A stretch of DNA of 64,000 nucleotides from contig JAGVWT010000003.1 in assembly GCA_018304175.1 (NCBI GenBank), forward strand, positions 33,982-97,981, read 5' to 3'. The notes below the pieces were generated by a model. It was given only the letters and a program-made list of their open reading frames with translations. It was not told the DNA's origin and made no database searches. This DNA is from Candidatus Pacearchaeota archaeon. GTDB lineage: Archaea; Nanobdellota; Nanobdellia; Pacearchaeales; GW2011-AR1. A program made the translations under genes and the position numbers. Below are positions 13,898-60,950 of this stretch, piece after piece (within the stretch, counting starts at the first letter, position 1; the number at the start of each line of letters is the position of its first letter).

Positions 13898-13937
13898 CTA
13901 AAAACCTTTAAATACGTTTTTCTTTTTCTCAAATCAT

Positions 13938-14030
13938 GTCCCGGTAGCTCAGCAGGTAGAGCACATGACTGTTAGAATTTTGAAAATTGCAGCGATCATG
14001 GGGTCGTAGGTTCGAGTCCTACCCGGGACG
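13938..14030 (+). tRNA. tRNA-Asn (anticodon GTT) with a 20-nt intron (13975-13994) at the canonical 37/38 position
   Basis: Manual fold: acceptor GTCCCGG/CCGGGAC, D-arm GCTC-AGCAGGTA-GAGC, anticodon stem CATGA/TCATG, loop CTGTTA|intron|A, T-arm GTAGG-TTCGAGT-CCTAC, discriminator G. No CCA is encoded. Confidence 0.7.
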
Positions 14031-14032
14031 TT

Positions 14033-48770: not shown

Positions 48771-50705
48771 TTAATTATCTAAAGAACTATTAATATGGTG
48801 CAAGTGAGGAATCAACAAATCTGTCCATGTTTCTATTTCTGTGTTAGGGTATGTTTCAATTATGTTGTCTATGTGAATCATTCCTGCTTCTTTTATAGAA
48901 GCTTCTTTTGGTTTGACATAGCCGTCTGTTTCCATTGCATAAATTAACCCAAAATGAACTGCGTCTACGGGCTTTTTCGTTGAGAATAAAGTTCCAATAA
49001 ATTTTGGCTTTGTATAATTCCCATCAACAGTAACTTCTTCAAATAATTCTCTTTCAAGACAATTTTTTATGTAATCAGGACCATCGTTTTTTCTTATGTG
49101 GCCCCCTAATCCTAGAGATAATTTTCCGAAAAGTCTTCTGTCTCCATATTCAACCGGGTCTGATGACCTTACATAAGCAAAAACTTTTTCATTTGGTCCA
49201 AAGAATAAAACATAAGGAATCGGTTGCAAAACTAATGTGTCATCTTCACATTCATATCTTGATTTGAAAAATCCTCTTTTTTGGATATCTATGATTAATT
49301 CTTTTGATAAATCGCCTTCAATAAATTCAAATCCTTCGCGTTTTTTTCTATGGTTCAAAAGAATTTTTGCATCTTGAACGATAACAAGTGTGTCAAGTTT
49401 AGAATAATTTTTTGCGGCCATTGCAAAATCAAAGGGTTTGAAATGTTTTGAAATTTTTGGGCCTGTCTGGCCTTGATAATTTGATGCTGCATCTTTGTCA
49501 CCATATAGTTTGTCAGGGATTTCAGAAGTTCTGAATAAATCCATTTTACTTAAAGGCATCCCGTTTTCCAGGACAACTTCTGTTTCTTCATCAGGGCTTA
49601 TCTCAAAAACCATGTCTCCATTAAATCCTGGGTCTACAAATCCAGCGTCGTGAGATCTTCCTTCAATACCTTCATGAGAGTGCCTTCTTAATTCGGCAGC
49701 AAGGTGTGGTGGAATCGAAAGGACTTCTCTTGAAGGAAATAAGTAATGTTCCCCTCTTTTAACAATAACTTGCTTCTCAGAAGATAAAGATGAAGGTATT
49801 ATAGCCTCGAAATATCTTTCAGGATCATTTTCTCCTTTTTTTGATAAGTCTATTGGAACAGGATTATTTCTTGCGCGCAGTCCTACTATGCCATGAGTTG
49901 AAGCTCCTTCTAAATCAAGAGTTATCTGAAGTCCGTCGTTGACCATACTTCCAATTAAAGGAAGAGATTCTGCTTTTTTTCCTTTGGAGTTTTTGCTAAA
50001 CAAAATTGGATTTTTTTCGTATTCTTCCCTTATTTCTTTAGAACTTAGTTTAGCATCTCCTAAAAAAAATCTCAACTGATTAAGAGTCAAATCTGGACGA
50101 ATAATTAAATTAAAAGGAAGTGATTGAATCAGTAACCACATATCTCTTAATTGAGTTACCTTTTGATTATCATTTCCGCTAACTTCATCGAATGAAGAAT
50201 TGTAATCGCACAAGAAACGTGTTTTTGGGAAAACTCTTCCTGTGCTGCTTTTTGGTGAAGACCTTACAAAGTCAAAATGTTCTTCGACATGCGACAAGTC
50301 AATTTGCTCGTTCAAACGCACTAAAGCAGTGTTGCCTCTTTTTATTTCAAAACCATCTGATATATCAAACCTCATTCTGTTTCCGGCAGGCAATTGTAAA
50401 AGGGTCCTGTAAATACTCTCATTCTTTCTTGGTCTGAATAAACCTCCTCTTTCAGAGTCGATAACAAATAATTCTTCGCCTAATGTCGGTTCAAAAGAAC
50501 CTGGTTGAATCCTGCTTTCCAAGTTACCATCTTTAAACATCCCATTATCTTTAGTAGATAATGATTGATTTTTGACAATCAATGCTCCGTCATGAATAAG
50601 TTTCCTTATCTGCTGAGAGACCAAAGAATAACCTCTTTCTTTCATCCTTTTTTTTGTTTTGCATAGTTTATAATTATTATTGTAATAAAAATTATACTTC
50701 TCCAA
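48771..50705 (-). CDS. two-domain protein: N-terminal long-form dCTP-deaminase-like (dUTPase-fold, DCD family) domain fused to a C-terminal Nudix hydrolase domain
   Basis: N-terminus LVSQQIRKLIHDGALIV...IQPGSFEPTLGEE and HDAGFVDPGFNGDMVFE (dCTP deaminase/dUTPase signature). The C-terminus GLGGHIRKNDGPDYIKNCLERELFEEV fits the Nudix box. An alternative start MKERGY is at 50645. Confidence 0.55.
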   Translation of the reverse strand: MEKYNFYYNNNYKLCKTKKRMKERGYSLVSQQIRKLIHDGALIVKNQSLSTKDNGMFKDGNLESRIQPGSFEPTLGEELFVIDSERGGLFRPRKNESIYRTLLQLPAGNRMRFDISDGFEIKRGNTALVRLNEQIDLSHVEEHFDFVRSSPKSSTGRVFPKTRFLCDYNSSFDEVSGNDNQKVTQLRDMWLLIQSLPFNLIIRPDLTLNQLRFFLGDAKLSSKEIREEYEKNPILFSKNSKGKKAESLPLIGSMVNDGLQITLDLEGASTHGIVGLRARNNPVPIDLSKKGENDPERYFEAIIPSSLSSEKQVIVKRGEHYLFPSREVLSIPPHLAAELRRHSHEGIEGRSHDAGFVDPGFNGDMVFEISPDEETEVVLENGMPLSKMDLFRTSEIPDKLYGDKDAASNYQGQTGPKISKHFKPFDFAMAAKNYSKLDTLVIVQDAKILLNHRKKREGFEFIEGDLSKELIIDIQKRGFFKSRYECEDDTLVLQPIPYVLFFGPNEKVFAYVRSSDPVEYGDRRLFGKLSLGLGGHIRKNDGPDYIKNCLERELFEEVTVDGNYTKPKFIGTLFSTKKPVDAVHFGLIYAMETDGYVKPKEASIKEAGMIHIDNIIETYPNTEIETWTDLLIPHLHHINSSLDN

Positions 50706-51849: not shown

Positions 51850-54375
51850 TTAACTACACTTGCTATAACCACAATCGAAGCATGTAGGTTCTTCGCAGCC
51901 TGAAACCATGCCTACGTTTGCACTGAAACATTTTGGGCAATGAAGCTTATTGCCATTTTGATTTTCTTCACCAACATTATCTTTTTCTAAAACTTTTGCA
52001 TCAATACTCAAGTCAACTGTTTTTATCTTACCTGTTTTTATTAAATGTGTTCTTAACGCTACGGCGATTCCGTGGGATATAGAATCAATTCTTTTCTTTC
52101 CAAATCCGTAAGGCCTCTCCGATTTTATAGAGTTGAGATGTTTCAAAATTCTTATAGGGTCACCGCCAAGACCTAAATATTTAGAGAGAACAATTCCTAA
52201 AGCACTTGTTAATCCTGAAATTTCTGTTCCTATCGGGGTCATGCTTGTGAAGATTTTTGTAGGCCCTTCGTTGTCGTAATTAATATGAATATGTAATGGT
52301 CCTTGACCTGTTTCAACTCTGTAATAATCTGAATTTTCGTGCAATTTTTTCATTTCTCTTATCACAACTTTCCCTTCTGCATCTTTCTTTTCTTTTTTGT
52401 CGCTTATATTTAAAATTTGTAATTGCTTTGAACCATCACGATAAATTGTGACTCCTTTTGCGCCATTTTCGTAAGCAAGCATGTATACCTCTTCTACTTC
52501 TTTTTCTGTTGCAGAGTTTTTCATATTCACTGTTTTTGAAACAGCATTGTCTGTGTATTTCTGGAAAGCACATTGCATCATTACATGCTCTTTTGGAGTT
52601 AAGTCGTGAGAAGTTAAGAATAAATCTTGAATTTCTTTTGGAATTTCATTTATTCCCACAAGTGACTTGTGATTATCGTTAATTTTCTTGTATAATCCCT
52701 CTTTTTTCAAACCAAAATAATCGTTTTCTATAGCTATTTTTTCAAATAAAGGATTTATCTCGAGGAAAGTGTCTTTTTCCAGGGGTTTTTCTCCTTTTTT
52801 TAAAGCATCAATTCCTGCGGCGTTGTAACGCACATATGCTACTGCGAAAAATGGTTCTATTCCAGCTCCTTGTAAACCTGCAGCTAATCCAATTGTTCCT
52901 GTTGGTGCTATTGTTGTGCGAGCAGAGTGTCTTGGAGAATATTCCTGTCCTCGGAAGTAAGAGCTGTTTTTATCGAAGATTGAACCCTTCCATGCAGGAA
53001 AAATTCCTCTCTTTTCTGCTAACTCTTCAGAAGCTTTCAAACATGAAACATTTATGAATTTCATCACTTCTTCTGCTTTTTTTAATGCATCGTGAGAATT
53101 GTATGGAATTCCTAACATAACAAGAGCTTCAGCCCAGCCCATAATACCTAATCCAATTCTTCTTGTTTTTTTCGCCATTTCTTCTATTTCTGAAATTGGA
53201 TAGTTGTTTATGTCTATAACATTGTCTAAGAAATGAGTGCATGTGTAAACACATTCTCTTAATTTTTCATAATCAAAATCCGCTTGATTTGTAAAAGATT
53301 CTTTCACGAATTTTGCAAGGTTTATTGAACCAAGATTGCATGGCTCGTAAGGCAGCAAAGGTTGTTCACCACAAGGGTTTGTTGATTCAATTTGTCCGAG
53401 ATGTGGGGTCGCGTTGCTTCCTGTGTTGTTTATCCTGTCAATTATTATGATTCCTGGGTCCCCTGTTTCCCAAGCACCCTTTATCAATTTTGTCCAGACA
53501 TCTTTTGCATTAAGCTTTCCGACGATTTGTTTGTTTCTTGGATTTATCAAGGGATAGTCTTCGTTGTTCTTCACTGCTTGCATGAAAGCATCATCTATTG
53601 TTACAGAGACGTTGAAATTTTCCATAACTCCAGGGGTTTTTTTCATGTCGATAAAATCAAGGATGTTTGGATGTGTGTAATGAAGAATCCCCATGTTTGC
53701 ACCTCTGCGAGTTCCGCCTTGTTTGACAACGTCTGTTGATTTGTCAAAAATTTGCATAAATGTTACTGGTCCTGATGAAATTCCACTAGTGCTTTTAACA
53801 AAGTCACCGCTTGGCCTTAATCTTGAGAAACTAAAACCTGTTCCGCCTCCGCTTTGATGAATCAGAGCCATGTTTTTAACACTTGTGTAAATTCCGTCGA
53901 TTGAGTCATCAACAGGGAGAACATAGCAAGCGCTTAACTGCTGCAAGTCCCTGCTGGCGTTCATCAGTGTCGGAGAATTTGGGAGAAATTTGAAGTTTGA
54001 AAGCAAGTCGTAAAATTTTCCTTCTGTGTCAGAAATAATCTCGGGATTTTTTGCATTTATATCTTCTAAATTTTCGAGGAACCTTCCAAAATTTTTGTGT
54101 CTATCTTCGCTTTTTACAAGCCCATGGTGTAGTAGAAACATCTTCGCTATTTTTCCTTTTGAACTGTACTCAACAATTCTTACATTCACACCATCAAAAA
54201 TTTCTTCTGTTGAAACTTTGTCTGAATGCAAAATATCCGAGAGTGCAATGTTGTGACAAACATTTCTCAGCCAGTGTTCAACTGTTGGCGAGTTCCTGAG
54301 GTATTTGTCTTTTATTACTTTAATCTGATTTATCGTTAAATTAAGTTTTGTAAGTTGTTTCAGTTCTGTTTCCAT
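51850..54375 (-). CDS. nrdJ: adenosylcobalamin-dependent ribonucleotide reductase (class II, NrdJ) with a C-terminal zinc ribbon
   Basis: Ten-stranded barrel RNR core with active-site Cys/Asn/Glu region (NPCGEQPL), C-terminal CPKC...CFDCG; 841 aa. Confidence 0.8.
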   Translation of the reverse strand: METELKQLTKLNLTINQIKVIKDKYLRNSPTVEHWLRNVCHNIALSDILHSDKVSTEEIFDGVNVRIVEYSSKGKIAKMFLLHHGLVKSEDRHKNFGRFLENLEDINAKNPEIISDTEGKFYDLLSNFKFLPNSPTLMNASRDLQQLSACYVLPVDDSIDGIYTSVKNMALIHQSGGGTGFSFSRLRPSGDFVKSTSGISSGPVTFMQIFDKSTDVVKQGGTRRGANMGILHYTHPNILDFIDMKKTPGVMENFNVSVTIDDAFMQAVKNNEDYPLINPRNKQIVGKLNAKDVWTKLIKGAWETGDPGIIIIDRINNTGSNATPHLGQIESTNPCGEQPLLPYEPCNLGSINLAKFVKESFTNQADFDYEKLRECVYTCTHFLDNVIDINNYPISEIEEMAKKTRRIGLGIMGWAEALVMLGIPYNSHDALKKAEEVMKFINVSCLKASEELAEKRGIFPAWKGSIFDKNSSYFRGQEYSPRHSARTTIAPTGTIGLAAGLQGAGIEPFFAVAYVRYNAAGIDALKKGEKPLEKDTFLEINPLFEKIAIENDYFGLKKEGLYKKINDNHKSLVGINEIPKEIQDLFLTSHDLTPKEHVMMQCAFQKYTDNAVSKTVNMKNSATEKEVEEVYMLAYENGAKGVTIYRDGSKQLQILNISDKKEKKDAEGKVVIREMKKLHENSDYYRVETGQGPLHIHINYDNEGPTKIFTSMTPIGTEISGLTSALGIVLSKYLGLGGDPIRILKHLNSIKSERPYGFGKKRIDSISHGIAVALRTHLIKTGKIKTVDLSIDAKVLEKDNVGEENQNGNKLHCPKCFSANVGMVSGCEEPTCFDCGYSKCS

Positions 54376-54376
54376 T

Positions 54377-54823
54377 TTATAGGTTTTTAAGTTCCTTCAT
54401 TTCTTTTTTGAAGTCGTTGACATCTTGGAAGTTTCTGTAGACAGATGCGAATCTTATGTATGCTACATTGTCGAGTTTTTTTATTTTTTTCATCGCTATT
54501 TCACCTATTGTCGAAGTTTTGACTTCTTTTTTGCCTTTTTTCCTTAATTGTTCTTCTATTTCGTTAACAATTTCTGTTATCTTTTCTTTGTTTACAGGGC
54601 GTTTTTCAAACGCCTTTTCAATGCCTCTCTCGAGTTTTTCTCTGCTGAACTTTTCCCTTGATTTGTCTTTTTTTATGACGTAAAAGTCACTGCTGTCAAT
54701 CCTTTCATACGTTGTGAATCTTTTTCTACACTTCAAACATTCTCTCCTCCTTCTTATTCCCTGAGAAGATTCTCTTTTGTTTGTTACCTTTATGCTTGTG
54801 CATGAACAGTATGGACATTTCAT
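54377..54823 (-). CDS. nrdR: transcriptional repressor NrdR (zinc ribbon plus ATP-cone)
   Basis: MKCPYCS...RRRECLKCRKRFTTYE and an ATP-cone. The likely start is MKCPYC at 54823 (the track's 54844 start adds 7 residues). Confidence 0.85.
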   Translation of the reverse strand: MKCPYCSCTSIKVTNKRESSQGIRRRRECLKCRKRFTTYERIDSSDFYVIKKDKSREKFSREKLERGIEKAFEKRPVNKEKITEIVNEIEEQLRKKGKKEVKTSTIGEIAMKKIKKLDNVAYIRFASVYRNFQDVNDFKKEMKELKNL

Positions 54824-54838
54824 TATAATATTAAGGAC

Positions 54839-54885
54839 ATACAATATCTTGTATGCTTAACCTTCGCTTGTTACAATAAATTGTA
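54839..54885 (-). promoter_or_regulatory. two NrdR-box-like palindromes (atacaatatcttgtat and tacaataaattgta) centred 32 bp apart, just upstream of nrdR-nrdJ
   Basis: Each matches the NrdR-box consensus acacwAtATaTwgtgt at 12-13 of 16 positions. Spacing is three helical turns, as in bacterial nrd operators. Confidence 0.5.
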
Positions 54886-54967
54886 CCAAAACCAATTCTT
54901 TTGGTAGAAATTGTTTTTAAACATTTATAAACATCACAATGTGGTAACAGAATTTAGCTTGAAAAAA

Positions 54968-55786
54968 TTACCTAACTTTAACTTTTCTTATTTTACGCGC
55001 TTCATCAATGATTTTTTTTAACTGGCTTTCTGGGATTTTTGTTTTGACTTTCAATTCACCCATGCTGTGCTCAGAAAGATTTTCTACGAGAAAGATGCCT
55101 GCTTGAGTCAATTTCATTTTTGTGTTGTTGTCAATTGATTTTAGAATGGTAATTGGATAAAGTTTTTTTCTTTCTATCAACTCTCTCAGAGATTTTTTTC
55201 CTGGATAATTCCAAGAAGTAATTCTCATGTTTACTCTTTCTGCATAAATGACGGCTTTCTGCGAGAGTTTAGTGTTTGTTGCAATCCAAGGACGGTCAAA
55301 GTGTTTGCTTAAATCAAGAAATCTAGCGTAGACATAGAGGACGACTTTGAGATTTGTGTAAACTCCCGGCGAATTGTGGTATTTGCATTCAATCATGTAT
55401 CTATATTTCTTTCTTGCTATTATATCGACTTCGTGGCTTGTGATTCTTCCGCGTACATTTTGGCCGACTTCTGTTTTATAACCATAATTTTCAAGAACCT
55501 TTGCAAAAAATCTTTCAAACGGAAATCCGGTAGGACCAAGATTCATTATGGCGTTTTTCAAGTCATAAATTGAAGCGATTTCTGGTTTTTGACTTTTAAG
55601 AAGTTGCATCGCGGTGTCAAAAATTTCCCTCGTCGTTATGCCATCGTAAACTTTTCTCTCAACTTCGTTTACAATTTCATCAATAAGTTTATTAGAAGCC
55701 CCGGCACGGAATAATGTCCCCCTTATTTTATTCGGGTTAAATTCCTCTTTTTTTCCTGACGCTTTTATAACATAAACCATTTTCAT
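54968..55786 (-). CDS. ATP-cone domain fused to an Mrr-like (PD-(D/E)xK) restriction-endonuclease domain
   Basis: N-terminus VIKASGKKEEFNPNKIRGTLFRAG...ITTREIFD (ATP-cone). Middle FERFFAKVLENYGYKTEV...HEVDIIARKK..YMIECKYH (Mrr_cat core). Confidence 0.6.
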   Translation of the reverse strand: MKMVYVIKASGKKEEFNPNKIRGTLFRAGASNKLIDEIVNEVERKVYDGITTREIFDTAMQLLKSQKPEIASIYDLKNAIMNLGPTGFPFERFFAKVLENYGYKTEVGQNVRGRITSHEVDIIARKKYRYMIECKYHNSPGVYTNLKVVLYVYARFLDLSKHFDRPWIATNTKLSQKAVIYAERVNMRITSWNYPGKKSLRELIERKKLYPITILKSIDNNTKMKLTQAGIFLVENLSEHSMGELKVKTKIPESQLKKIIDEARKIRKVKVR

Positions 55787-55827
55787 TTAAGTGAATAATT
55801 TTTTATAAAGATATTGTTTTGAAAAAC

Positions 55828-56354: not shown

Positions 56355-58946
56355 ATGACAAAAGTAATTGAAGTAAAAAAACATAGTGGTAATCAAATTG
56401 AGTCAATCTTACACCCATTAGTCAAGGAATGGTTTTTTTCTAAGTTTGAGGATTTCTCGCTGACGCAGAAATATGGTGTAATGAACATATGGGAAAGAAA
56501 AAATATCTTGATTTCAGCGCCGACAGGAGGAACAAAAACGCTTACAGCTTTTCTTTCAGTTTTGAATTATTTAGTAATTCTTGCCGAGAAAAATGAATTG
56601 GAAGACAGAATTTATGCAGTTTACACTTCTCCATTAAAAGCGTTGAGCAACGATATTCATAAAAATTTAATTGAACCTCTTTGGGAAATAAAAGAACTGG
56701 CGAAAAAAAAGGAAGTTAAATTGCAAGATATAAGGGTTGGTTTGAGAACTGGAGATACATCTGTGAGTGAAAGAGCAAAAATGATGAAAAAATCACCACA
56801 TATTTTTGTTACAACACCTGAATCTCTTGCGATAGTTTTGACTAGCAAAAAATTTGTTGAAAAACTAAAGGCTGTAGAATTTTGTATTGTCGACGAAATT
56901 CATGCGATGGATAATAAGAGGGGAACTTATTTGAGTATCACTCTTGAAAGACTTAACGAGATTTCTTCTGTTTTTCCTGTGAAAATTGGATTGAGTGCGA
57001 CTGTGGAACCAATGGAAGAAGTTGCGAAGTACCTTGTTGGCGAAGATGAAAAAAGGGAAGTAAATTTTGTGCGGGTTCCTCTAGATAAAAAAATAAACAT
57101 TGAGGTCTTGACTCCTGTAGATGATTTTATATCTGACAAAAATATCTCAACAAACATGTACTCTTTGATTGATAGATTGATAAAAGAACACAAAACGACT
57201 TTAATTTTTACGAATACAAGGAGTGCTACTGAAAGGGTTGTGAGTCACTTAAAAGATAAGTTTCCAACAGAGTATGGCGATGATAACATTGCCGCGCACC
57301 ATTCTTCATTGAGTAAAAGCCATAGGTTTGACATTGAAGAACGCTTGAGGCAGGGAAAATTAAAAGTAGTAGTCTGCTCTACTTCCTTGGAATTGGGGAT
57401 TGATATTGGATATATTGATTTGGTAATAATGCTGTCTTCTCCAAAGTCATCTTCGAGGGCTTTGCAACGTTTAGGAAGGGCAGGGCATAAACTTCATGAA
57501 ACAGCGAAAGGAAGATTCATAGTTCTTGACAGAGACGATTTAGTTGAATGTAGCGTAATCCAAAAAGAAATGATTGAAAGAAAAATAAACAAAATAAATT
57601 TCCCTCAGAATTGTCTTGATGTTTTGTCGCAGCAGATTTTTGGAATGGCAATTTATAAAATCTGGGACCTAAATGAAATTTTTTCTGTGATTAGGAAAAG
57701 TCATTGTTACAAAAATCTTCCTAGAAAAGATTTTTTAGATGTTATAAGCTACCTTTCTGGAGAGTATGAACTTGAAAAAAACAATATTTACAGCAAAATC
57801 TGGTACGACCAAAAAACAAATCAAATCGGCAAAAAAGGGAAGATGGCTAGAGTTTTGTATTTGACAAATATAGGAACAATTCCTGATGAATCTTTTGTTA
57901 CTGTGAAATTTGCGAGCGGAGAGCAGATTGGTTTTATCGATGAGGGTTTCATGGAAAGGATGAAAAAAGGAGATGTTTTTGTATTGGGCGGGAAGAAATA
58001 TATTTATAGATACACAAGAGGAATGAATCTTTATGTGAATAGTGCTGAACATCTTTCTCCGACAATCCCTTCGTGGTTTTCTGAAATGCTACCATTGAGT
58101 TTTGATACTGCTTTGGAAGTTAACCTCTTCAGAAAAATAATGAGAAATAAACTTGAGTCAAAAACAAAAAAACAAGAAATATTGAAACACATAATGGAAT
58201 ACCTATATGTAAAAAAAGAAACAGCAGAATCGATATACAATTATTTTAACGAGCAGCACAAATTTTTAGAGATACCAAACGAAAATCTTATAATTGTTGA
58301 GAAATACAAGACAGAGAAAAGTTATTTTTTGTTTCATAGCATGTATGGTCGAAGAGTCAATGATGTCTTGTCAAGGGCTTTTGGGTTTTTGATAGGAAGA
58401 ACAGGGAAGAGGGATGTAGAAATTGGAATAAATGATAATGGGTTTTACATTGCCGGAGAAGCTACAATTCAAAATTCTTTAGGGAAGGCAATCAAATTTC
58501 TCGACGAGAAAAACATTGAGGAAGTCTTGAAAGAAGCGATTGAAAAAACAGATGTTTTAATGAGAAGGTTTAGACATTGTGCAGCAAGAAGCTTGATGAT
58601 TCTCAGAAATTATAAAGGAAGGAACAAAACAGTTGGGAAACAGCAGTTAAAAAGTCATTTCCTTCTTCACGCAGTAAGGAAGATAACAAAAGAATTTCCA
58701 ATACTTAGAGAAGCACGAAGGGAAGTAATTGAAGATTTAATGGATTTAGAAAGCGCGAAAAAAGTTTTGAAGTGGATAAAAGAAAAAAAAGTTAAAATTG
58801 TAATTCTTGATACAAATGTTCCGAGTCCTTTCGCAATGAATTTAATACTTCAAGGTTACAGTGATTTAATTAAAATTGAAGATAGGCAGGAATTTTTGAA
58901 GAGAATGCATGAAGAACATTTAAAAGTAATTGGGGGTGAAGAATGA
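56355..58946 (+). CDS. lhr: Lhr-like large superfamily-2 helicase (Lhr core)
   Basis: Motif I SAPTGGTKT, motif II DEIH, motif VI QRLGRAGH, Lhr-type winged-helix and domain 4; 863 aa. Confidence 0.85.
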   Translation: MTKVIEVKKHSGNQIESILHPLVKEWFFSKFEDFSLTQKYGVMNIWERKNILISAPTGGTKTLTAFLSVLNYLVILAEKNELEDRIYAVYTSPLKALSNDIHKNLIEPLWEIKELAKKKEVKLQDIRVGLRTGDTSVSERAKMMKKSPHIFVTTPESLAIVLTSKKFVEKLKAVEFCIVDEIHAMDNKRGTYLSITLERLNEISSVFPVKIGLSATVEPMEEVAKYLVGEDEKREVNFVRVPLDKKINIEVLTPVDDFISDKNISTNMYSLIDRLIKEHKTTLIFTNTRSATERVVSHLKDKFPTEYGDDNIAAHHSSLSKSHRFDIEERLRQGKLKVVVCSTSLELGIDIGYIDLVIMLSSPKSSSRALQRLGRAGHKLHETAKGRFIVLDRDDLVECSVIQKEMIERKINKINFPQNCLDVLSQQIFGMAIYKIWDLNEIFSVIRKSHCYKNLPRKDFLDVISYLSGEYELEKNNIYSKIWYDQKTNQIGKKGKMARVLYLTNIGTIPDESFVTVKFASGEQIGFIDEGFMERMKKGDVFVLGGKKYIYRYTRGMNLYVNSAEHLSPTIPSWFSEMLPLSFDTALEVNLFRKIMRNKLESKTKKQEILKHIMEYLYVKKETAESIYNYFNEQHKFLEIPNENLIIVEKYKTEKSYFLFHSMYGRRVNDVLSRAFGFLIGRTGKRDVEIGINDNGFYIAGEATIQNSLGKAIKFLDEKNIEEVLKEAIEKTDVLMRRFRHCAARSLMILRNYKGRNKTVGKQQLKSHFLLHAVRKITKEFPILREARREVIEDLMDLESAKKVLKWIKEKKVKIVILDTNVPSPFAMNLILQGYSDLIKIEDRQEFLKRMHEEHLKVIGGEE

Positions 58947-59458
58947 TTAATAATTTAATAAAATCCCTTACTGAAAGTGAAAGAAAACTTTTGGTTGAAA
59001 ACAATAGAGTTGAGGGAGAGGATTTTTTTGAAGCTCATGAAGATGCTGCTTTGGCCTGGTGTTACGCGAAAGCAGAAAGACTTAGACCTGCTACTCTAAA
59101 CTATGTAAAAAATATTCATTATGCTTTAATGAGAAGACTTAATCCTGAAATAGCTGGAAGATTCAGGGAAAAAAAAGTTTATGTCGGAAACAGGGATGAT
59201 TGTTCTCTTCCAGGAAAAGTTAAATCAGATATGGAGAAATGGTGTAAAGAATTTAATCTAGCAAAAAAAGATGAGGATGAAATAATAAAGGAATATATAA
59301 GGTTCATGAAAATTCATCCTTTTGAAGATGGAAACGGCAGGACAGGAAGAATATTAATGAACATTCAGAGAATTAATAATGGATATGGTTTGCACATAAT
59401 AATGAGGTCTGATAAAATTGTTCAAGGAGAAGATGATTATTACGGTTTGTTTAGATAA
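58943..59458 (+). CDS. fic: Fic/Doc-family (Fido) protein
   Basis: Canonical Fic motif HPFEDGNGRTGR; start ATGA overlaps the lhr stop; 171 aa. Confidence 0.8.
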   Translation: MINNLIKSLTESERKLLVENNRVEGEDFFEAHEDAALAWCYAKAERLRPATLNYVKNIHYALMRRLNPEIAGRFREKKVYVGNRDDCSLPGKVKSDMEKWCKEFNLAKKDEDEIIKEYIRFMKIHPFEDGNGRTGRILMNIQRINNGYGLHIIMRSDKIVQGEDDYYGLFR

Positions 59459-59459
59459 A

Positions 59460-59855
59460 ATGAAAACAAAAACAGAAAAGGATTTTGCGAAAACTGTGCT
59501 TGATCTAACAAAAACAAAAGAAGAGAGAATTCAGGCTGCGTTTCATTTGGAGAATGCACTGAATGATGAATCTATAAGAAAACTTGGAAAAGCGCTTTTG
59601 ACAGAACCTTCACCAATTGTGAGGCATGAATTTGCGTTTTCCCTCGGTGAAAATGCTAAACCTAAAATAGCAAGTCCTTACTTAATGAAAGCTGTTGAAG
59701 AAGATGAAAATATTTTCGTGAGACATGAAGCGTTGCTCGCCTTAGCAACATTAAACGATAAGTCAGTAATTCCTTTTATAGAAAAATTTCTTAATTCTCC
59801 TGAAGAAGAAATCAGGGAAAGTGCTGAGATTGCACTTCAGAGGTTGAGAAATTAA
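59460..59855 (+). CDS. HEAT/PBS-lyase-repeat protein
   Basis: Repeated ...VRHEFAFSLGE... and ...VRHEALLALATL... HEAT-like units. The ATG at 59460 directly follows the fic stop. Confidence 0.55.
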   Translation: MKTKTEKDFAKTVLDLTKTKEERIQAAFHLENALNDESIRKLGKALLTEPSPIVRHEFAFSLGENAKPKIASPYLMKAVEEDENIFVRHEALLALATLNDKSVIPFIEKFLNSPEEEIRESAEIALQRLRN

Positions 59856-60168
59856 ATAAATTAGGCAATCGGAATTCCTTGAAATTTTTTTTTAATATTT
59901 CACCTATTGTCGAAGTTTTGACTTCTTTTTTGCCTTTTTTCCTAAATTGTTCTTCTATCGATTTATCTATCTTCTCTCTTACGATATTTCTTCCATATAA
60001 AGTTAATCCCTGAACCAAAGCACCATTGCCATTTCTCCTAATCTCGTTTATCGCTTCGTCCACATAATTATTAATTTCGTTTGCGTTCCAGTTTGGAAAT
60101 CCAGCCAATATATTACTCCTTAAATCATTTTCAGTCCAGTCAAAAGTATATGGTAAATCTCTTCCCAT
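59812..60168 (-). CDS. small chimeric ORF carrying a 62-bp near-identical copy of an nrdR ATP-cone segment; possibly a gene fragment
   Basis: Encodes IEEQFRKKGKKEVKTSTIGEI. DNA 59897-59958 is about 95% identical to 54498-54559 inside nrdR. Confidence 0.4.
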   Translation of the reverse strand: MGRDLPYTFDWTENDLRSNILAGFPNWNANEINNYVDEAINEIRRNGNGALVQGLTLYGRNIVREKIDKSIEEQFRKKGKKEVKTSTIGEILKKNFKEFRLPNLFNFSTSEVQSQHFP

Positions 60169-60218
60169 TTTTAAATAAAATTACTAAGCTTTTTAAGCAT
60201 TTATCTTCTTGAAAATAT

Positions 60219-60950
60219 ATGGAACAGAAATTCGTTTTTATAGACAAAACCGTGTTTTTTCCTGAGTATGGGATTTTAGTAATCGGAGATTTGCATGTTG
60301 GTTACGAGCATTCGTTGAGGGATTCTGGTGTTATGATTCCTGAAAGTCAGACTGATGATACAATAAAAAATTTACAAGAAATAATAAATGAAATAAAAAG
60401 ACAAAATTGGAATATCAAAAAAATTGTTTTTCTTGGAGACATAAAGCACTATTTTGGTTATGAGTGGAAGGAGAGGGTTTATTTTAACAAAATACTTGAC
60501 TTTTTAAGAAAATATGTAAAAGATTCAGGAATTGTTTTGATAAAAGGAAATCATGACAAGTTCGACTTTTCCGGAAAGAAAATGAAAAATTATTTTATAA
60601 AGGATGGAATCGCATTTTTCCATGGTCATATGTCTTATAATCAAGTCAGTGACGAAAAAATAAAAATTTGGGTTATTGGGCATTTGCATCCTTCAATAAT
60701 GTTAAGCGACAAGCAAAACATAAAGCGAGAAAAATACAAGTGTTTTCTCGTCGGAGAATTTAATAGTAGAGAAGTTATAATTGTCCCAAGTTTTTTGGGA
60801 ATAATTGAGGGGACTTCTGTAAATGAAGAAGGATACGAAAATGAAAAAGAATTCTCAATTATTCCTCACGATGCGATAAAAAGTTTTAATGCTTATGTTG
60901 TTGATGAGAAAGGAAAAGTTCTTGATTTTGGAAAAGTAAGAAAGTTATGA
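60219..60950 (+). CDS. metallophosphoesterase (possibly Lhr-associated MPE-type)
   Basis: IGDLHVG, FLGDIKHYF, GNHDKF, GHMS, GHLHP motifs. Confidence 0.7.
   Translation: MEQKFVFIDKTVFFPEYGILVIGDLHVGYEHSLRDSGVMIPESQTDDTIKNLQEIINEIKRQNWNIKKIVFLGDIKHYFGYEWKERVYFNKILDFLRKYVKDSGIVLIKGNHDKFDFSGKKMKNYFIKDGIAFFHGHMSYNQVSDEKIKIWVIGHLHPSIMLSDKQNIKREKYKCFLVGEFNSREVIIVPSFLGIIEGTSVNEEGYENEKEFSIIPHDAIKSFNAYVVDEKGKVLDFGKVRKL

What the first reader, a model, noticed from the sequence alone, without database searches (positions are those of the whole stretch)
54968..55786. ATP-cone domain fused to an Mrr-type PD-(D/E)xK nuclease, encoded next to nrdR
The N-terminal 90 aa form a clear ATP-cone, the dATP/ATP-sensing module of RNRs and NrdR. 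Residues about 95-165 match the catalytic core of Mrr-like restriction endonucleases (HEVDIIA...IECKY). This is an allosteric nucleotide sensor wired to a DNase, sitting right next to the dNTP-supply operon and its repressor. It could be a nuclease whose activity is gated by the ATP/dATP ratio. That is a plausible anti-virus or DNA-damage device, since infection and replication stress shift dNTP pools. Alternatively it is a regulator using the nuclease fold for DNA binding only. The C-terminal 100 aa are uncharacterised.
Basis: partly seen in the sequence, partly recalled or inferred. Interest (0 to 1): 0.6.

Follow-up and report, generated by a model that had tools for sequence, protein, structure and literature searches.

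The report
ATP-cone-fused AF1548-type nuclease gene
This gene encodes a typical member of a widespread, already catalogued but never experimentally studied protein family that joins an ATP/dATP-sensing domain to an intact DNA-cutting domain and a DNA-binding tail; its gene neighbours point to nucleotide economy and stress rather than virus defence.

Summary
ORF 54968-55786 (-) encodes 272 aa with an ATP-cone (aa 4-82) and a PD-(D/E)xK nuclease core (aa 83-200). The "uncharacterised" C-terminus is an AF1548-like helix-hairpin-helix domain (aa 210-266). Residues 93-266 match crystal structure 1Y88 (E=1.8e-38).

The protein is 100% identical to a deposited Pacearchaeota protein. At least 595 species genomes in Archaea and Bacteria encode a relative, and in those examined the architecture is uniform. 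Catalytic E91/D121/E133/K135 are invariant in 150-151 of 151 representatives. The ATP-cone inner-site residues are also conserved. An active, adenine-nucleotide-regulated nuclease is therefore the best reading.

The nrdR adjacency holds in every close DPANN relative sampled (51-68% identity). The two genes are nevertheless separate transcription units: tandem NrdR boxes sit in front of nrdR only. Elsewhere the adjacency is absent (1/80 genome loci).

In Bacteroidota, Verrucomicrobia and Chlamydiota the gene heads an operon with a beta-CASP nuclease, a nucleoside/NMP phosphorylase and a PRPP-synthetase-like gene. That operon sits inside Usp/Hsp20/PFK stress islands.

I found no defence-island, phage or plasmid signal, so the anti-virus idea is not supported. 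A link to nucleotide metabolism is plausible. No experimental study of the family was found.

The parts
54968..55786 (-). Complete gene for the 272-aa ATP-cone / PD-(D/E)xK nuclease / HhH protein
   Evidence: ORF list. 100% identical to P0001, 'restriction endonuclease [Candidatus Pacearchaeota archaeon]'. AF2 model has pLDDT 94.1 and pTM 0.88.
55541..55777 (-). ATP-cone domain (aa 4-82): beta-hairpin lid E5-7/E13-15 plus a four-helix bundle
   Evidence: PF03477, 45.2 bits. Foldseek matches NrdR cones 9fvr/9gex/9a6n at rmsd 1.5-2.2 A over 81-84 aligned columns. Inner-site residues V6 K8 A9 E14 F16 K20 I21 T52 I55 align with EcNrdR V51 K53 S54 E59 F61 K65 L66 S105 I108.
55187..55540 (-). PD-(D/E)xK nuclease core (aa 83-200), including the invariant junction motif LGPxGFxFE (aa 83-91) and catalytic E91, D121, E133, K135
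   Evidence: PF04471, 28 bits. 1Y88 match at E=1.8e-38. Alpha-beta-beta-beta-alpha-beta topology in DSSP. Conservation 150-151/151. D121/E133/K135 correspond to AF1548 D38/E51/K53 predicted by Yooseph et al. 2007 (numbering checked).
54989..55159 (-). AF1548-like C-terminal helix-hairpin-helix domain (aa 210-266), the putative non-sequence-specific DNA-binding module
   Evidence: PF22357, 36.1 bits; HHH_5 weak. RadA N-terminal domain similarity E=2.8e-5. Five helices in the model. Superposes on 1Y88 with TM 0.86.
55787..55827 (-). Own promoter region of the gene, with the TATA-like CTTTATAAAAAA ending about 14 nt upstream of the ATG
   Evidence: Read directly from the sequence. This is an inference from archaeal promoter architecture, not tested.
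54962..54967 (-). T6 run immediately after the stop codon (archaeal oligo-T termination signal)
   Evidence: Sequence. Inferred function.
54840..54885 (-). Two NrdR boxes (TACAANNNNTTGTA cores, 32 bp apart) upstream of nrdR. They mark nrdR-RNR as a separate, NrdR-controlled unit and are not part of the target gene's control region.
   Evidence: These are the only two exact matches in 64 kb. The same tandem pair lies upstream of nrdR in 10/10 DPANN loci, and none lies upstream of the target.
54377..54844 (-). nrdR, the conserved downstream neighbour (true start probably ATG at 54823)
   Evidence: TIGR00244, 179.8 bits, aligned from aa 8. Zn_ribbon_NrdR plus ATP-cone.

Best explanation
The gene encodes a cytoplasmic, metal-dependent PD-(D/E)xK DNA endonuclease. 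An N-terminal ATP-cone controls its activity by binding an adenine nucleotide (ATP and/or dATP). A C-terminal helix-hairpin-helix domain holds DNA without sequence specificity. By analogy with RNR and NrdR, nucleotide binding to the cone most likely changes the oligomeric state or the docking of the cone against the nuclease, and so switches cleavage on or off. The enzyme belongs to the cell's own nucleic-acid and nucleotide economy. It would supply or limit nucleic-acid breakdown for (deoxy)nucleotide salvage according to the adenylate/dATP pool, especially under energy or low-oxygen stress. It does not act as a restriction or anti-phage enzyme. What is shown: the domain architecture, the fold, the conservation of the catalytic and nucleotide-site residues, and the gene neighbourhoods. 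What is inferred: nucleotide binding, nuclease activity, the direction of regulation, the substrate and the physiological role.
For: Architecture and fold. Active site: E91 151/151, D121 151/151, E133 150/151, K135 151/151, plus R155, D158, N171 and W192 nearly invariant. Cone: K8 148/149, G11, K20 (K/R 148), T/S52 147, Y/F74 150 and K/R77 151 are conserved, and they align with experimentally defined NrdR inner-site contacts. The A/S at position 9 matches S54 of E. coli NrdR. The architecture is uniform: almost all of 150 representatives are 262-295 aa and full length, and one apparent cone-less case was a start-codon miscall. Nucleotide-metabolism context arises independently in two lineages. 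(i) In the window and all eight close DPANN relatives sampled, the gene sits upstream of nrdR-RNR, followed by dcd/dUTPase/thyA/tmk. (ii) In 22 of 41 non-CPR bacterial loci and on two plasmids from other phyla, it heads an operon with a beta-CASP nuclease, a TP-family phosphorylase and a Prs-like gene, with -1/-4/-14 nt overlaps. That module's partners (MBL, Prs, TP; bll3115-3117) are induced by microoxia in B. diazoefficiens (PMC6515984). The surrounding island carries Usp, Hsp20, PFK, PPK2, 2-hydroxyacid dehydrogenase and a PAS kinase with a Crp-type response regulator, resembling low-oxygen loci described in PMC6127331. Housekeeping behaviour: ~40% identity across domains, presence in reduced DPANN and CPR genomes beside FtsZ/DnaA/tRNA-synthetase genes, and native GC content.
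Against: No biochemical data exist for any member. The literature searches found only a 2007 fold-based prediction for AF1548. The position equivalent to the NrdR outer-site tyrosine (EcNrdR Y131) is not a tyrosine, so ATP/dATP discrimination of the NrdR type is uncertain and the ligand could be ATP alone. In most archaeal and CPR genomes there is no nucleotide-metabolism neighbour at all. The most widely shared neighbour across domains is a heavy-metal P-type ATPase, with or without ArsR, which the salvage model does not explain. The microoxia evidence concerns partner genes in an organism where the presence of this family was not shown. The target and nrdR are not co-transcribed or co-regulated by NrdR boxes.
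Confidence: 0.45

Rival explanations
1. DNA repair or recombination nuclease. It would be a structure-specific endonuclease (Hjc/NucS-like role) working on damaged or stalled replication intermediates, with the ATP-cone tying its activity to dNTP/ATP availability. This would explain why it sits between the Lhr repair helicase and the dNTP-supply operon.
For: Lhr lies next to the gene in the window and in relatives P0029 and P0034. The HhH domain resembles the RadA N-terminal domain. There are weak fold matches to NucS (2vld). JGI names some members 'Holliday junction resolvase' or 'RecB family endonuclease'. Strong conservation fits a housekeeping DNA-transaction enzyme.
Against: No Lhr relative of the window protein was found in any of the 80 genome loci. 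In other close relatives Lhr is replaced by a P-type ATPase. No repair genes recur among neighbours. The bacterial operon partners are catabolic or salvage enzymes rather than repair factors.
Confidence: 0.2
2. Anti-phage or abortive-infection effector. Infection shifts the ATP/dATP pool, the cone senses this, and the nuclease is unleashed on phage or host DNA.
For: The logic of a sensor domain fused to a PD-(D/E)xK nuclease parallels the CARF nucleases Can2 and Cdn1, which appear as weak fold hits. The Mrr_cat family contains type IV restriction enzymes. In one relative a DndB/methyltransferase island lies next to the gene (L081).
Against: PADLOC gives no significant hit. No viral relatives were found. 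Only 2 of 72,556 plasmids carry a relative. Among 136 archaeal and CPR neighbours there is no restriction-modification, CRISPR or other defence signature. The bacterial context is a metabolic and stress operon. Very high cross-domain conservation and a uniform architecture are atypical of defence genes. In L081 the island occupies the place of the nrdR-RNR-cobA-dcd block found in sister contigs, rather than being a conserved partner.
Confidence: 0.1
3. Metal-homeostasis-linked function. The protein would work with, or be regulated alongside, an ArsR-family repressor and a heavy-metal P-type ATPase. Its acidic PD-(D/E)xK site might act as a metal-dependent or metal-sensing element.
For: An HMA P-type ATPase is the only neighbour that recurs in both domains: 18 of 80 genome loci and DPANN relatives P0027, P0045, P0056 and P0097. 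Overlapping ArsR[-4]TARGET[-14]ATPase arrangements occur in Bacteroidota L049 and L066.
Against: Nothing in the ATP-cone or HhH domains suggests metal sensing. The association covers only about a quarter of loci. P-type ATPases are also generic members of low-oxygen and stress islands, so this may be the same stress theme or co-transfer.
Confidence: 0.1
4. Non-catalytic DNA-binding regulator. The nuclease fold and HhH domain would only bind DNA, and the cone would make binding nucleotide-dependent, giving an NrdR-like regulator of nucleotide genes.
For: NrdR demonstrates that an ATP-cone can control DNA binding (PMC9110341). The gene is a conserved neighbour of nrdR in DPANN.
Against: The catalytic E, D, E and K are invariant in 150-151 of 151 representatives, which is not expected for a binding-only scaffold. 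No recurrent DNA motif was found other than the NrdR boxes, which are explained by NrdR itself. HhH domains bind DNA without sequence specificity (established knowledge).
Confidence: 0.07

Closest known systems
AF1548 of Archaeoglobus fulgidus (PDB 1Y88; Pfam PF04471 + PF22357)
   Same: It shares the same nuclease core and C-terminal HhH domain. Sequence identity is 40% (E=1.8e-38, target residues 93-266), with TM 0.86 and rmsd 1.8 A. It has the same D/E/K triad, predicted as D38/E51/K53 (PMC1821046).
   Different: The crystallised AF1548 chain lacks the ATP-cone. It is a structural-genomics target with no functional data. Whether it is truly cone-less in the genome could not be checked; a similar 'cone-less' representative proved to be a start-codon miscall.
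NrdR and ATP-cone-bearing ribonucleotide reductases (Pfam PF03477)
   Same: The N-terminal domain has the same fold and the same inner nucleotide-site residues. The expected logic is the same: adenine-nucleotide binding controls an attached effector through conformational or oligomeric change (PMC9110341).
   Different: The effector here is a nuclease rather than a Zn-ribbon DNA binder or a reductase. The alpha1-alpha2 loop is 8 residues shorter than in NrdR. The outer-site tyrosine is absent. The gene has no NrdR boxes.
Mrr-type type IV restriction endonucleases (Mrr_cat)
   Same: It passes the Mrr_cat HMM threshold (28 bits against 21) and has the PD-(D/E)xK catalytic motif.
   Different: It lacks the N-terminal winged-helix modified-DNA reader of Mrr (established knowledge). 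It has no defence context. A profile of the nuclease core finds no characterised nuclease in the PDB other than 1Y88.
Ligand-gated PD-(D/E)xK nucleases of CRISPR/CBASS signalling (Can2, Card1/VC1899-like, Cdn1)
   Same: The concept is shared: a small-nucleotide sensor domain fused to a PD-(D/E)xK nuclease. These appear as weak fold hits through the nuclease domain.
   Different: The sensor is an ATP-cone, not CARF or SAVED. The ligand would be a primary metabolite, not a second messenger. There is no CRISPR or CBASS neighbourhood. TM scores are only ~0.3.
Low-oxygen / dormancy-type stress loci (B. cenocepacia lxa locus; microoxia-induced bll3115-3117 of B. diazoefficiens)
   Same: The bacterial orthologues sit in islands with the same gene types: Usp, alpha-crystallin/Hsp20, phosphofructokinase, MBL-fold hydrolase, TP-family phosphorylase, Prs and a P-type ATPase.
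   Different: No ATP-cone nuclease is reported in those published loci. The resemblance is one of gene content only and was not tested by expression data for this family.

Membership tests
ATP-cone (PF03477) | Profile HMM score above the curated threshold | tested here: met
   45.2 bits against GA 25.8, aa 5-71.
ATP-cone (PF03477) | Fold: beta-hairpin lid over a four-helix bundle | tested here: met
   The AF2 model (pLDDT 94) has strands 5-7 and 13-15 and helices 18-28, 32-45, 52-66 and 68-81. It superposes on NrdR cones at rmsd 1.5-2.2 A over 81-84 aligned columns.
ATP-cone (PF03477) | Conserved inner-site nucleotide contacts (Lys in the lid, Glu and Phe at the lid end, Lys on helix 1, Ser/Thr on helix 3) | tested here: met
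   K8, E14, F16, K20 and T52 align with EcNrdR K53, E59, F61, K65 and S105 and are conserved in 115-148 of 149 cone-bearing representatives.
ATP-cone (PF03477) | Second (outer) site with the discriminating tyrosine, as in NrdR | tested here: not met
   The region aligned with EcNrdR Y131 carries no Tyr. This feature is specific to two-nucleotide cones and is not required of all ATP-cones.
ATP-cone (PF03477) | Actual binding of ATP/dATP | not testable with these tools
   This needs ITC, filter binding or a co-structure.
PD-(D/E)xK nuclease superfamily / Mrr_cat (PF04471) | HMM above threshold and the alpha-beta-beta-beta-alpha-beta core | tested here: met
   28.0 bits against GA 21. DSSP shows H89-99, E104-112, E117-125, E129-135, H146-158 and E165-170.
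PD-(D/E)xK nuclease superfamily / Mrr_cat (PF04471) | Catalytic E...D...(D/E)xK residues present and conserved | tested here: met
   E91 151/151, D121 151/151, E133 150/151 and K135 151/151.
PD-(D/E)xK nuclease superfamily / Mrr_cat (PF04471) | Nuclease activity | not testable with these tools
   No biochemical study of any family member was found.
Type IV (modification-dependent) restriction enzyme of the Mrr kind | N-terminal modified-DNA-recognition domain and a defence-type genomic context | tested here: not met
   The N-terminus is an ATP-cone. There is no PADLOC hit and no defence genes among the neighbours. The family is absent from viral contigs and almost absent from plasmids.
AF1548-like family (1Y88; PF22357 C-terminal domain) | Sequence and structural match across the nuclease and C-terminal domains | tested here: met
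   E=1.8e-38 over aa 93-266. PF22357 36.1 bits against GA 23.9. TM 0.86, rmsd 1.8 A.
NrdR regulon | NrdR box(es) in the gene's own upstream region | tested here: not met
   No box with at most 1 mismatch lies within 200 nt upstream of the target in any of 10 loci, while tandem boxes lie upstream of nrdR in 10/10.
nrdR-RNR operon (co-transcription) | Same transcript, with no intervening terminator, promoter or genes | tested here: not met
   A T6 run, a TATA-like element and NrdR boxes lie in the 144-nt gap. In relatives, 0-4 unrelated genes, some on the opposite strand, lie between the two.
Bacterial ATP-cone nuclease / beta-CASP / TP / Prs operon | The partner genes lie directly downstream on the same strand | tested here: not met
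   The window has no tblastn match to the beta-CASP, TP, Prs, Usp or P-ATPase representatives. The module is confined to non-CPR bacteria (22/41 loci) and absent from archaea (0/26).

The most novel reading that the evidence does not exclude
The family would be the first ATP-cone-controlled nuclease. In this reading it is a conserved enzyme in Archaea and Bacteria that reads the ATP/dATP pool and gates DNA breakdown accordingly. In DPANN archaea it would be coupled to the NrdR-RNR dNTP-supply locus. In Bacteroidota and Chlamydiota it would be the first step of a low-oxygen or energy-stress operon (nuclease, beta-CASP exonuclease, NMP/nucleoside phosphorylase, PRPP synthetase-like) that recycles nucleic acids into nucleotides or carbon.
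Probability: 0.3. Interest if true: 0.7.

Novelty: new member of a known kind. Interest (0 to 1): 0.42.

Why it matters
ATP-cones are understood only as regulators of dNTP synthesis, in RNR activity and NrdR-dependent transcription. A nuclease under ATP-cone control would extend that sensor to nucleic-acid degradation and would link the two sides of the nucleotide economy, synthesis and salvage. The family is compact at about 270 aa. It has a confident structural model and a crystal structure of the catalytic part. It occurs in cultured Bacteroidota, so the hypothesis can be tested directly. It is also retained in the minimal genomes of DPANN archaea and CPR bacteria, organisms generally thought to depend on scavenged nucleotides (general knowledge, not tested here), which suggests it does something important for them. 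The architecture itself is already catalogued, however, so the value lies in the functional hypothesis and the context survey, not in a new discovery.

Tried and rejected
1. A single-sequence genome scan found nothing because the patterns were too specific. Repeating it with an alignment worked.

2. My first reading was that the nrdR adjacency is just decaying synteny, based on 1/80 genome loci and P0029 with three inserted genes. I revised this after four further close relatives all kept the adjacency despite different flanks.

3. I rejected co-transcription with nrdR or control by NrdR, because of the terminator-like T6 run, the TATA-like element and boxes that occur only in front of nrdR.

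4. The defence hypothesis was tested with PADLOC, PHROGs, viral contigs, plasmids and a neighbour Pfam census. All were negative.

5. I considered that the 'KASG' lid, in place of the 'KRDG' of RNRs, might mean a dead cone. I rejected this because E. coli NrdR itself has K53-S54, and S54 contacts the gamma-phosphate.

6. I checked whether 'cone-less' family members indicate a separable module. The one case I could inspect is a start-codon miscall.

7. A nuclease-core profile searched against the PDB, to find a characterised nearest nuclease, returned only 1Y88.

9. The founding ATP-cone paper (PMID 10939243) is not held. From memory it may already list this fusion, but I could not verify that.

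10. I looked for an ATP-cone gene beside bll3115-3117 in the B. diazoefficiens paper and its supplements and found nothing.
Full report
OBSERVATION

Three Pfam domains exceed their curated thresholds.
- ATP-cone, aa 5-71, 45.2 bits.
- Mrr_cat, aa 87-192, 28.0 bits.
- AF1548-like_C, aa 210-266, 36.1 bits.

Residues 93-266 match the crystal structure of the A. fulgidus hypothetical protein AF1548 (1Y88) at E=1.8e-38. It resembles the helix-hairpin-helix N-terminal domain of RadA (NCBIfam E=2.8e-5). The downstream gene is a bona fide NrdR (TIGR00244, 179.8 bits).

STRUCTURE

An AlphaFold2 model built on 32 homologues is very confident (pLDDT 94.1, pTM 0.88). It shows three parts.
- A beta-hairpin lid plus four helices, which is the cone.
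- A canonical alpha-beta-beta-beta-alpha-beta PD-(D/E)xK core.
- A five-helix tail.

Foldseek superposes the nuclease and tail on 1Y88 (TM 0.86, rmsd 1.8 A). It superposes the N-terminus on NrdR ATP-cones (rmsd 1.5-2.2 A over 81-84 aligned columns) and on RNR cones. There are only weak hits to other nucleases: MspJI, AspBHI, NucS, Can2 and Cdn1. A profile of the nuclease core alone finds nothing in the PDB except 1Y88. No characterised nuclease is therefore a close relative.

THE FAMILY

The protein is 100% identical to a deposited 'restriction endonuclease [Candidatus Pacearchaeota archaeon]'. It has more than 1,000 homologues with the same precomputed three-domain architecture.

An exhaustive search of 1.84 billion cluster representatives gives 1,174 hits, 432 of them at E<=1e-30. 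Almost all are 262-295 aa and full length.

At least 595 species genomes encode a relative. The Archaea include Hadesarchaea, DPANN groups, Altiarchaeota, Thermofilaceae, Bathyarchaeia and Nitrososphaerota. The Bacteria include many Bacteroidota, among them cultured Cyclobacterium, Daejeonella, Arenibacter, Tenacibaculum and Aquimarina, as well as Patescibacteria, Verrucomicrobia and others. Identity to the window protein is 37-57%.

RefSeq already names members 'ATP cone domain-containing protein'. The architecture is therefore catalogued. What is missing is any experiment. The literature searches found only a 2007 fold-based prediction that AF1548 is a restriction-endonuclease-like protein with catalytic D38/E51/K53 (PMC1821046). 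They found nothing on an ATP-cone nuclease. The founding ATP-cone paper is not held.

ARE THE FUNCTIONAL SITES INTACT?

Across 151 representatives at 50% identity or less, the nuclease residues are essentially invariant.
- E91, 151/151.
- D121, 151/151.
- E133, 150/151.
- K135, 151/151.
- E119, R155, D158, N171, W192 and P211 are also nearly invariant.

D121/E133/K135 are the residues predicted for AF1548 once the 13-residue tag in the PDB numbering is allowed for.

For the cone, the E. coli NrdR structure paper lists the inner-site contacts as V51, K53, S54, E59, P60, F61, K65, L66, S105 and I108. In a MAFFT alignment nine of these correspond to V6, K8, A9, E14, F16, K20, I21, T52 and I55 of the target; P60 aligns with E15. 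K8, E14, F16, K20 and T/S52 are conserved in the family. The 'KA/KS' lid is not a defect, because E. coli NrdR has K53-S54.

The outer-site tyrosine (Y131) has no tyrosine counterpart, so a two-nucleotide ATP/dATP switch of the NrdR type is doubtful.

The most conserved motif of all is LGPxGFxFE (aa 83-91), at the junction of the cone and the nuclease. It is a candidate hinge for allostery. I could not examine it in three dimensions.

One of the two short 'cone-less' representatives is a start-codon miscall. The cone is in frame upstream.

GENE NEIGHBOURHOODS

(a) The window. The order on the minus strand is: target, nrdR, class II RNR (no cone of its own), cobA-type adenosyltransferase, dCTP deaminase. 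A small membrane protein and a divergent Lhr helicase lie on the other side, with topoisomerase I further out. GC content is native.

The gap between the target and nrdR contains three elements. The first is a T6 run directly after the stop codon. The second is a TATA-like TTTATAAAT. The third is two palindromic boxes with TACAANNNNTTGTA cores, 32 bp apart, an arrangement that (from memory of the published consensus) fits tandem NrdR boxes. These boxes are the only two exact matches in 64 kb.

(b) Close DPANN relatives (51-68% identity). In all eight relatives sampled the target lies upstream of nrdR-RNR on the same strand, with 0-4 unrelated genes between. These are P0004, P0027, P0029, P0034, P0045, P0056 and Woesearchaeota L022, together with the window itself. 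The one exception is a variant contig of P0004 in which a DndB/methyltransferase island takes the place of the nrdR-RNR-cobA-dcd block. The flanks differ among these relatives: Lhr or an HMA P-type ATPase upstream, and cobA-dcd or dCMP deaminase-dUTPase-thyA downstream. The adjacency therefore survives rearrangement.

In 10 of 10 loci the tandem boxes lie in front of nrdR, and none lies in front of the target. The two genes are conserved neighbours but separate transcription units, and only nrdR is box-controlled.

(c) Other archaea and CPR. Only 1 of 80 genome loci has nrdR nearby, and none has a relative of the window's RNR. Among 136 immediate neighbours there are 154 Pfam families, and none is present more than four times. 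All are housekeeping types such as MnmA, FtsZ, DnaA and tRNA synthetases.

(d) Non-CPR bacteria. In 22 of 41 loci a beta-CASP MBL nuclease follows on the same strand, mostly as the very next gene. In many of these a 500-aa thymidine/AMP-phosphorylase-like protein and a PRPP-synthetase-like protein follow it. The gaps between genes are -1, -4, -14 or a few nucleotides. The same four-gene module is annotated in RefSeq on a Pontibacter plasmid (Bacteroidota) and a Criblamydia plasmid (Chlamydiota).

The surrounding islands carry the following genes.
- Multiple Usp genes and Hsp20.
- Phosphofructokinase, 2-hydroxyacid dehydrogenase and a DeoC-family aldolase.
- PPK2.
- A PAS histidine kinase with a Crp-type response regulator.
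- ArsR and P-type ATPases.
- In Criblamydia, also phosphoketolase, glycogen phosphorylase and acetate kinase.

The MBL/Prs/TP trio (bll3115-3117) is induced by microoxia at the protein and transcript level in B. diazoefficiens (PMC6515984). Similar gene sets define the low-oxygen lxa locus of B. cenocepacia, which its authors compare with the mycobacterial DosR regulon (PMC6127331). Of the 41 non-CPR bacterial loci, 33 carry at least one of these island genes. The figures for archaea and CPR are 4 of 26 and 1 of 13.

(e) The only neighbour that recurs in both domains is a heavy-metal P-type ATPase, sometimes with an ArsR regulator. I cannot explain this.

DEFENCE?

All tests were negative.
- PADLOC gives one insignificant hit (15 bits).
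- PHROGs hits only RNR cones.
- No relative was found in 2.9 million viral contigs.
- 2 of 72,556 plasmids carry a relative.
- Neighbours show no restriction-modification or CRISPR signature.

The family is uniform in architecture and about 40% identical between Archaea and Bacteroidota. It is retained in reduced DPANN and CPR genomes. This pattern fits a constrained cellular function better than an arms-race gene.

INTERPRETATION

The best-supported reading is an active PD-(D/E)xK DNA endonuclease with a non-specific HhH DNA clamp. An adenine-nucleotide-binding ATP-cone regulates its activity.

Two independent contexts concern nucleotide supply or salvage: the dNTP-supply locus in DPANN, and the beta-CASP/phosphorylase/Prs operon within stress islands in bacteria. 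I therefore favour a role in nucleotide-pool-coupled nucleic-acid turnover, confidence about 0.45 overall. The biochemical half of this is more secure than the physiological half.

The rival explanations and their confidences are as follows.
- A repair or recombination nuclease, supported by the Lhr adjacency and the RadA-like HhH domain: 0.2.
- A defence effector: 0.1.
- A metal-homeostasis-linked role: 0.1.
- A non-catalytic regulator: 0.07.

None of this has been tested biochemically. The direction of regulation, the ligand (ATP alone or ATP/dATP) and the substrate are all inferences.

NOVELTY AND SCORE

The gene is a typical member of a family that is already deposited and annotated at domain level. 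The catalytic half of a relative was crystallised in 2004. The nrdR adjacency is real within its clade but is neither operonic nor general. The functional idea of an ATP-cone-gated nuclease is untested as far as the searched literature shows, and it can be tested directly. That keeps the finding moderately interesting (0.42). I file it as a new member of a known (catalogued) kind. The most novel reading still allowed is the first ATP-cone-controlled nuclease, tied to nucleotide salvage under stress. I give that a probability of about 0.3, and it would deserve about 0.7 if true.

Noticed in passing
window 54840-54885 (- strand), with the TATA-like element at about 54925-54933: This is an archaeal NrdR locus with bacterial-type tandem NrdR boxes (TACAANNNNTTGTA cores, 32 bp apart) placed between a TATA-like element and the nrdR start. 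The same tandem pair (31-32 bp apart) lies upstream of nrdR in 10 of 10 DPANN loci examined. NrdR is described as rare in archaea (PMC9110341), so how it represses an archaeal promoter is an open question.
   Followed up: partly
window 54823-54844: The mechanical ORF start of nrdR (TTG at 54844) is probably wrong. The TIGR00244 match starts at residue 8, so the real start is most likely the ATG at 54823 (MKCPYC...). One NrdR box overlaps the spurious N-terminal extension.
   Followed up: partly
window 51850-54375 (-): The class II RNR has no ATP-cone of its own (Ribonuc_red_lgN, barrel and TSCPD only) and ends in a Cys-rich tail. In this locus, nucleotide sensing by ATP-cones therefore rests on NrdR and the nuclease.
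   Followed up: no
window 48771-50705 (-): This 644-aa ORF has dCTP-deaminase domains up to about aa 422, then a ~200-aa tail containing a Nudix-box-like GGHIRKNDGPDYIKNCLERELFEEV with no Pfam hit at 1e-4. It may be a DCD-Nudix fusion. Relatives have a 361-aa DCD without the tail.
   Followed up: no
window 13937-14031 (+): ARAGORN calls this a 95-nt 'tRNA-Stop (tta)'. Rfam shows a genuine tRNA (61.8 bits) with a 21-nt insertion after the anticodon loop. It is an intron-containing archaeal tRNA whose anticodon reads GUU (Asn), not a suppressor.
   Followed up: yes
L081 7792-12813 (a relative of P0004): A HATPase_c_3 / DndB / D12-methyltransferase island occupies the position where sister contigs (L082-L084) carry nrdR-RNR-cobA-dcd. 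This looks like a strain-level insertion or replacement next to the target gene.
   Followed up: no
window 56355-60950 (+) and L095 1091-4816: The Lhr helicase stop overlaps the start of a Fic-domain gene (58943), followed by a HEAT-repeat protein and a metallophosphoesterase. An Lhr-HEAT-metallophosphoesterase array recurs in relative L095.
   Followed up: no
L091 1972-6597 (Pontibacter plasmid), L092 6995-11602 (Criblamydia plasmid), L037, L053, L062, L068, L073: A cross-phylum bacterial four-gene operon: ATP-cone nuclease, beta-CASP MBL hydrolase, a 500-aa thymidine/AMP-phosphorylase-like protein, and ribose-phosphate pyrophosphokinase. It is embedded in Usp/Hsp20/PFK/PPK2 stress islands. 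Three of its gene types are microoxia-induced in B. diazoefficiens (bll3115-3117).
   Followed up: partly
L049, L066 (ArsR[-4]TARGET[-14]P-ATPase); L033, L039, L070; L093, L097, L098, L085: A heavy-metal (HMA) P-type ATPase, often with an ArsR-family regulator, is the only neighbour of this family that recurs in both Archaea and Bacteria, sometimes with overlapping reading frames. This is unexplained.
   Followed up: partly
L099 217-1023: The 201-aa 'cone-less' cluster representative P0148 is a gene-calling artefact. The ATP-cone is encoded in the same frame upstream of the called ATG. Short members of this family in databases should therefore be treated with caution, possibly including AF1548 itself.
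   Followed up: yes
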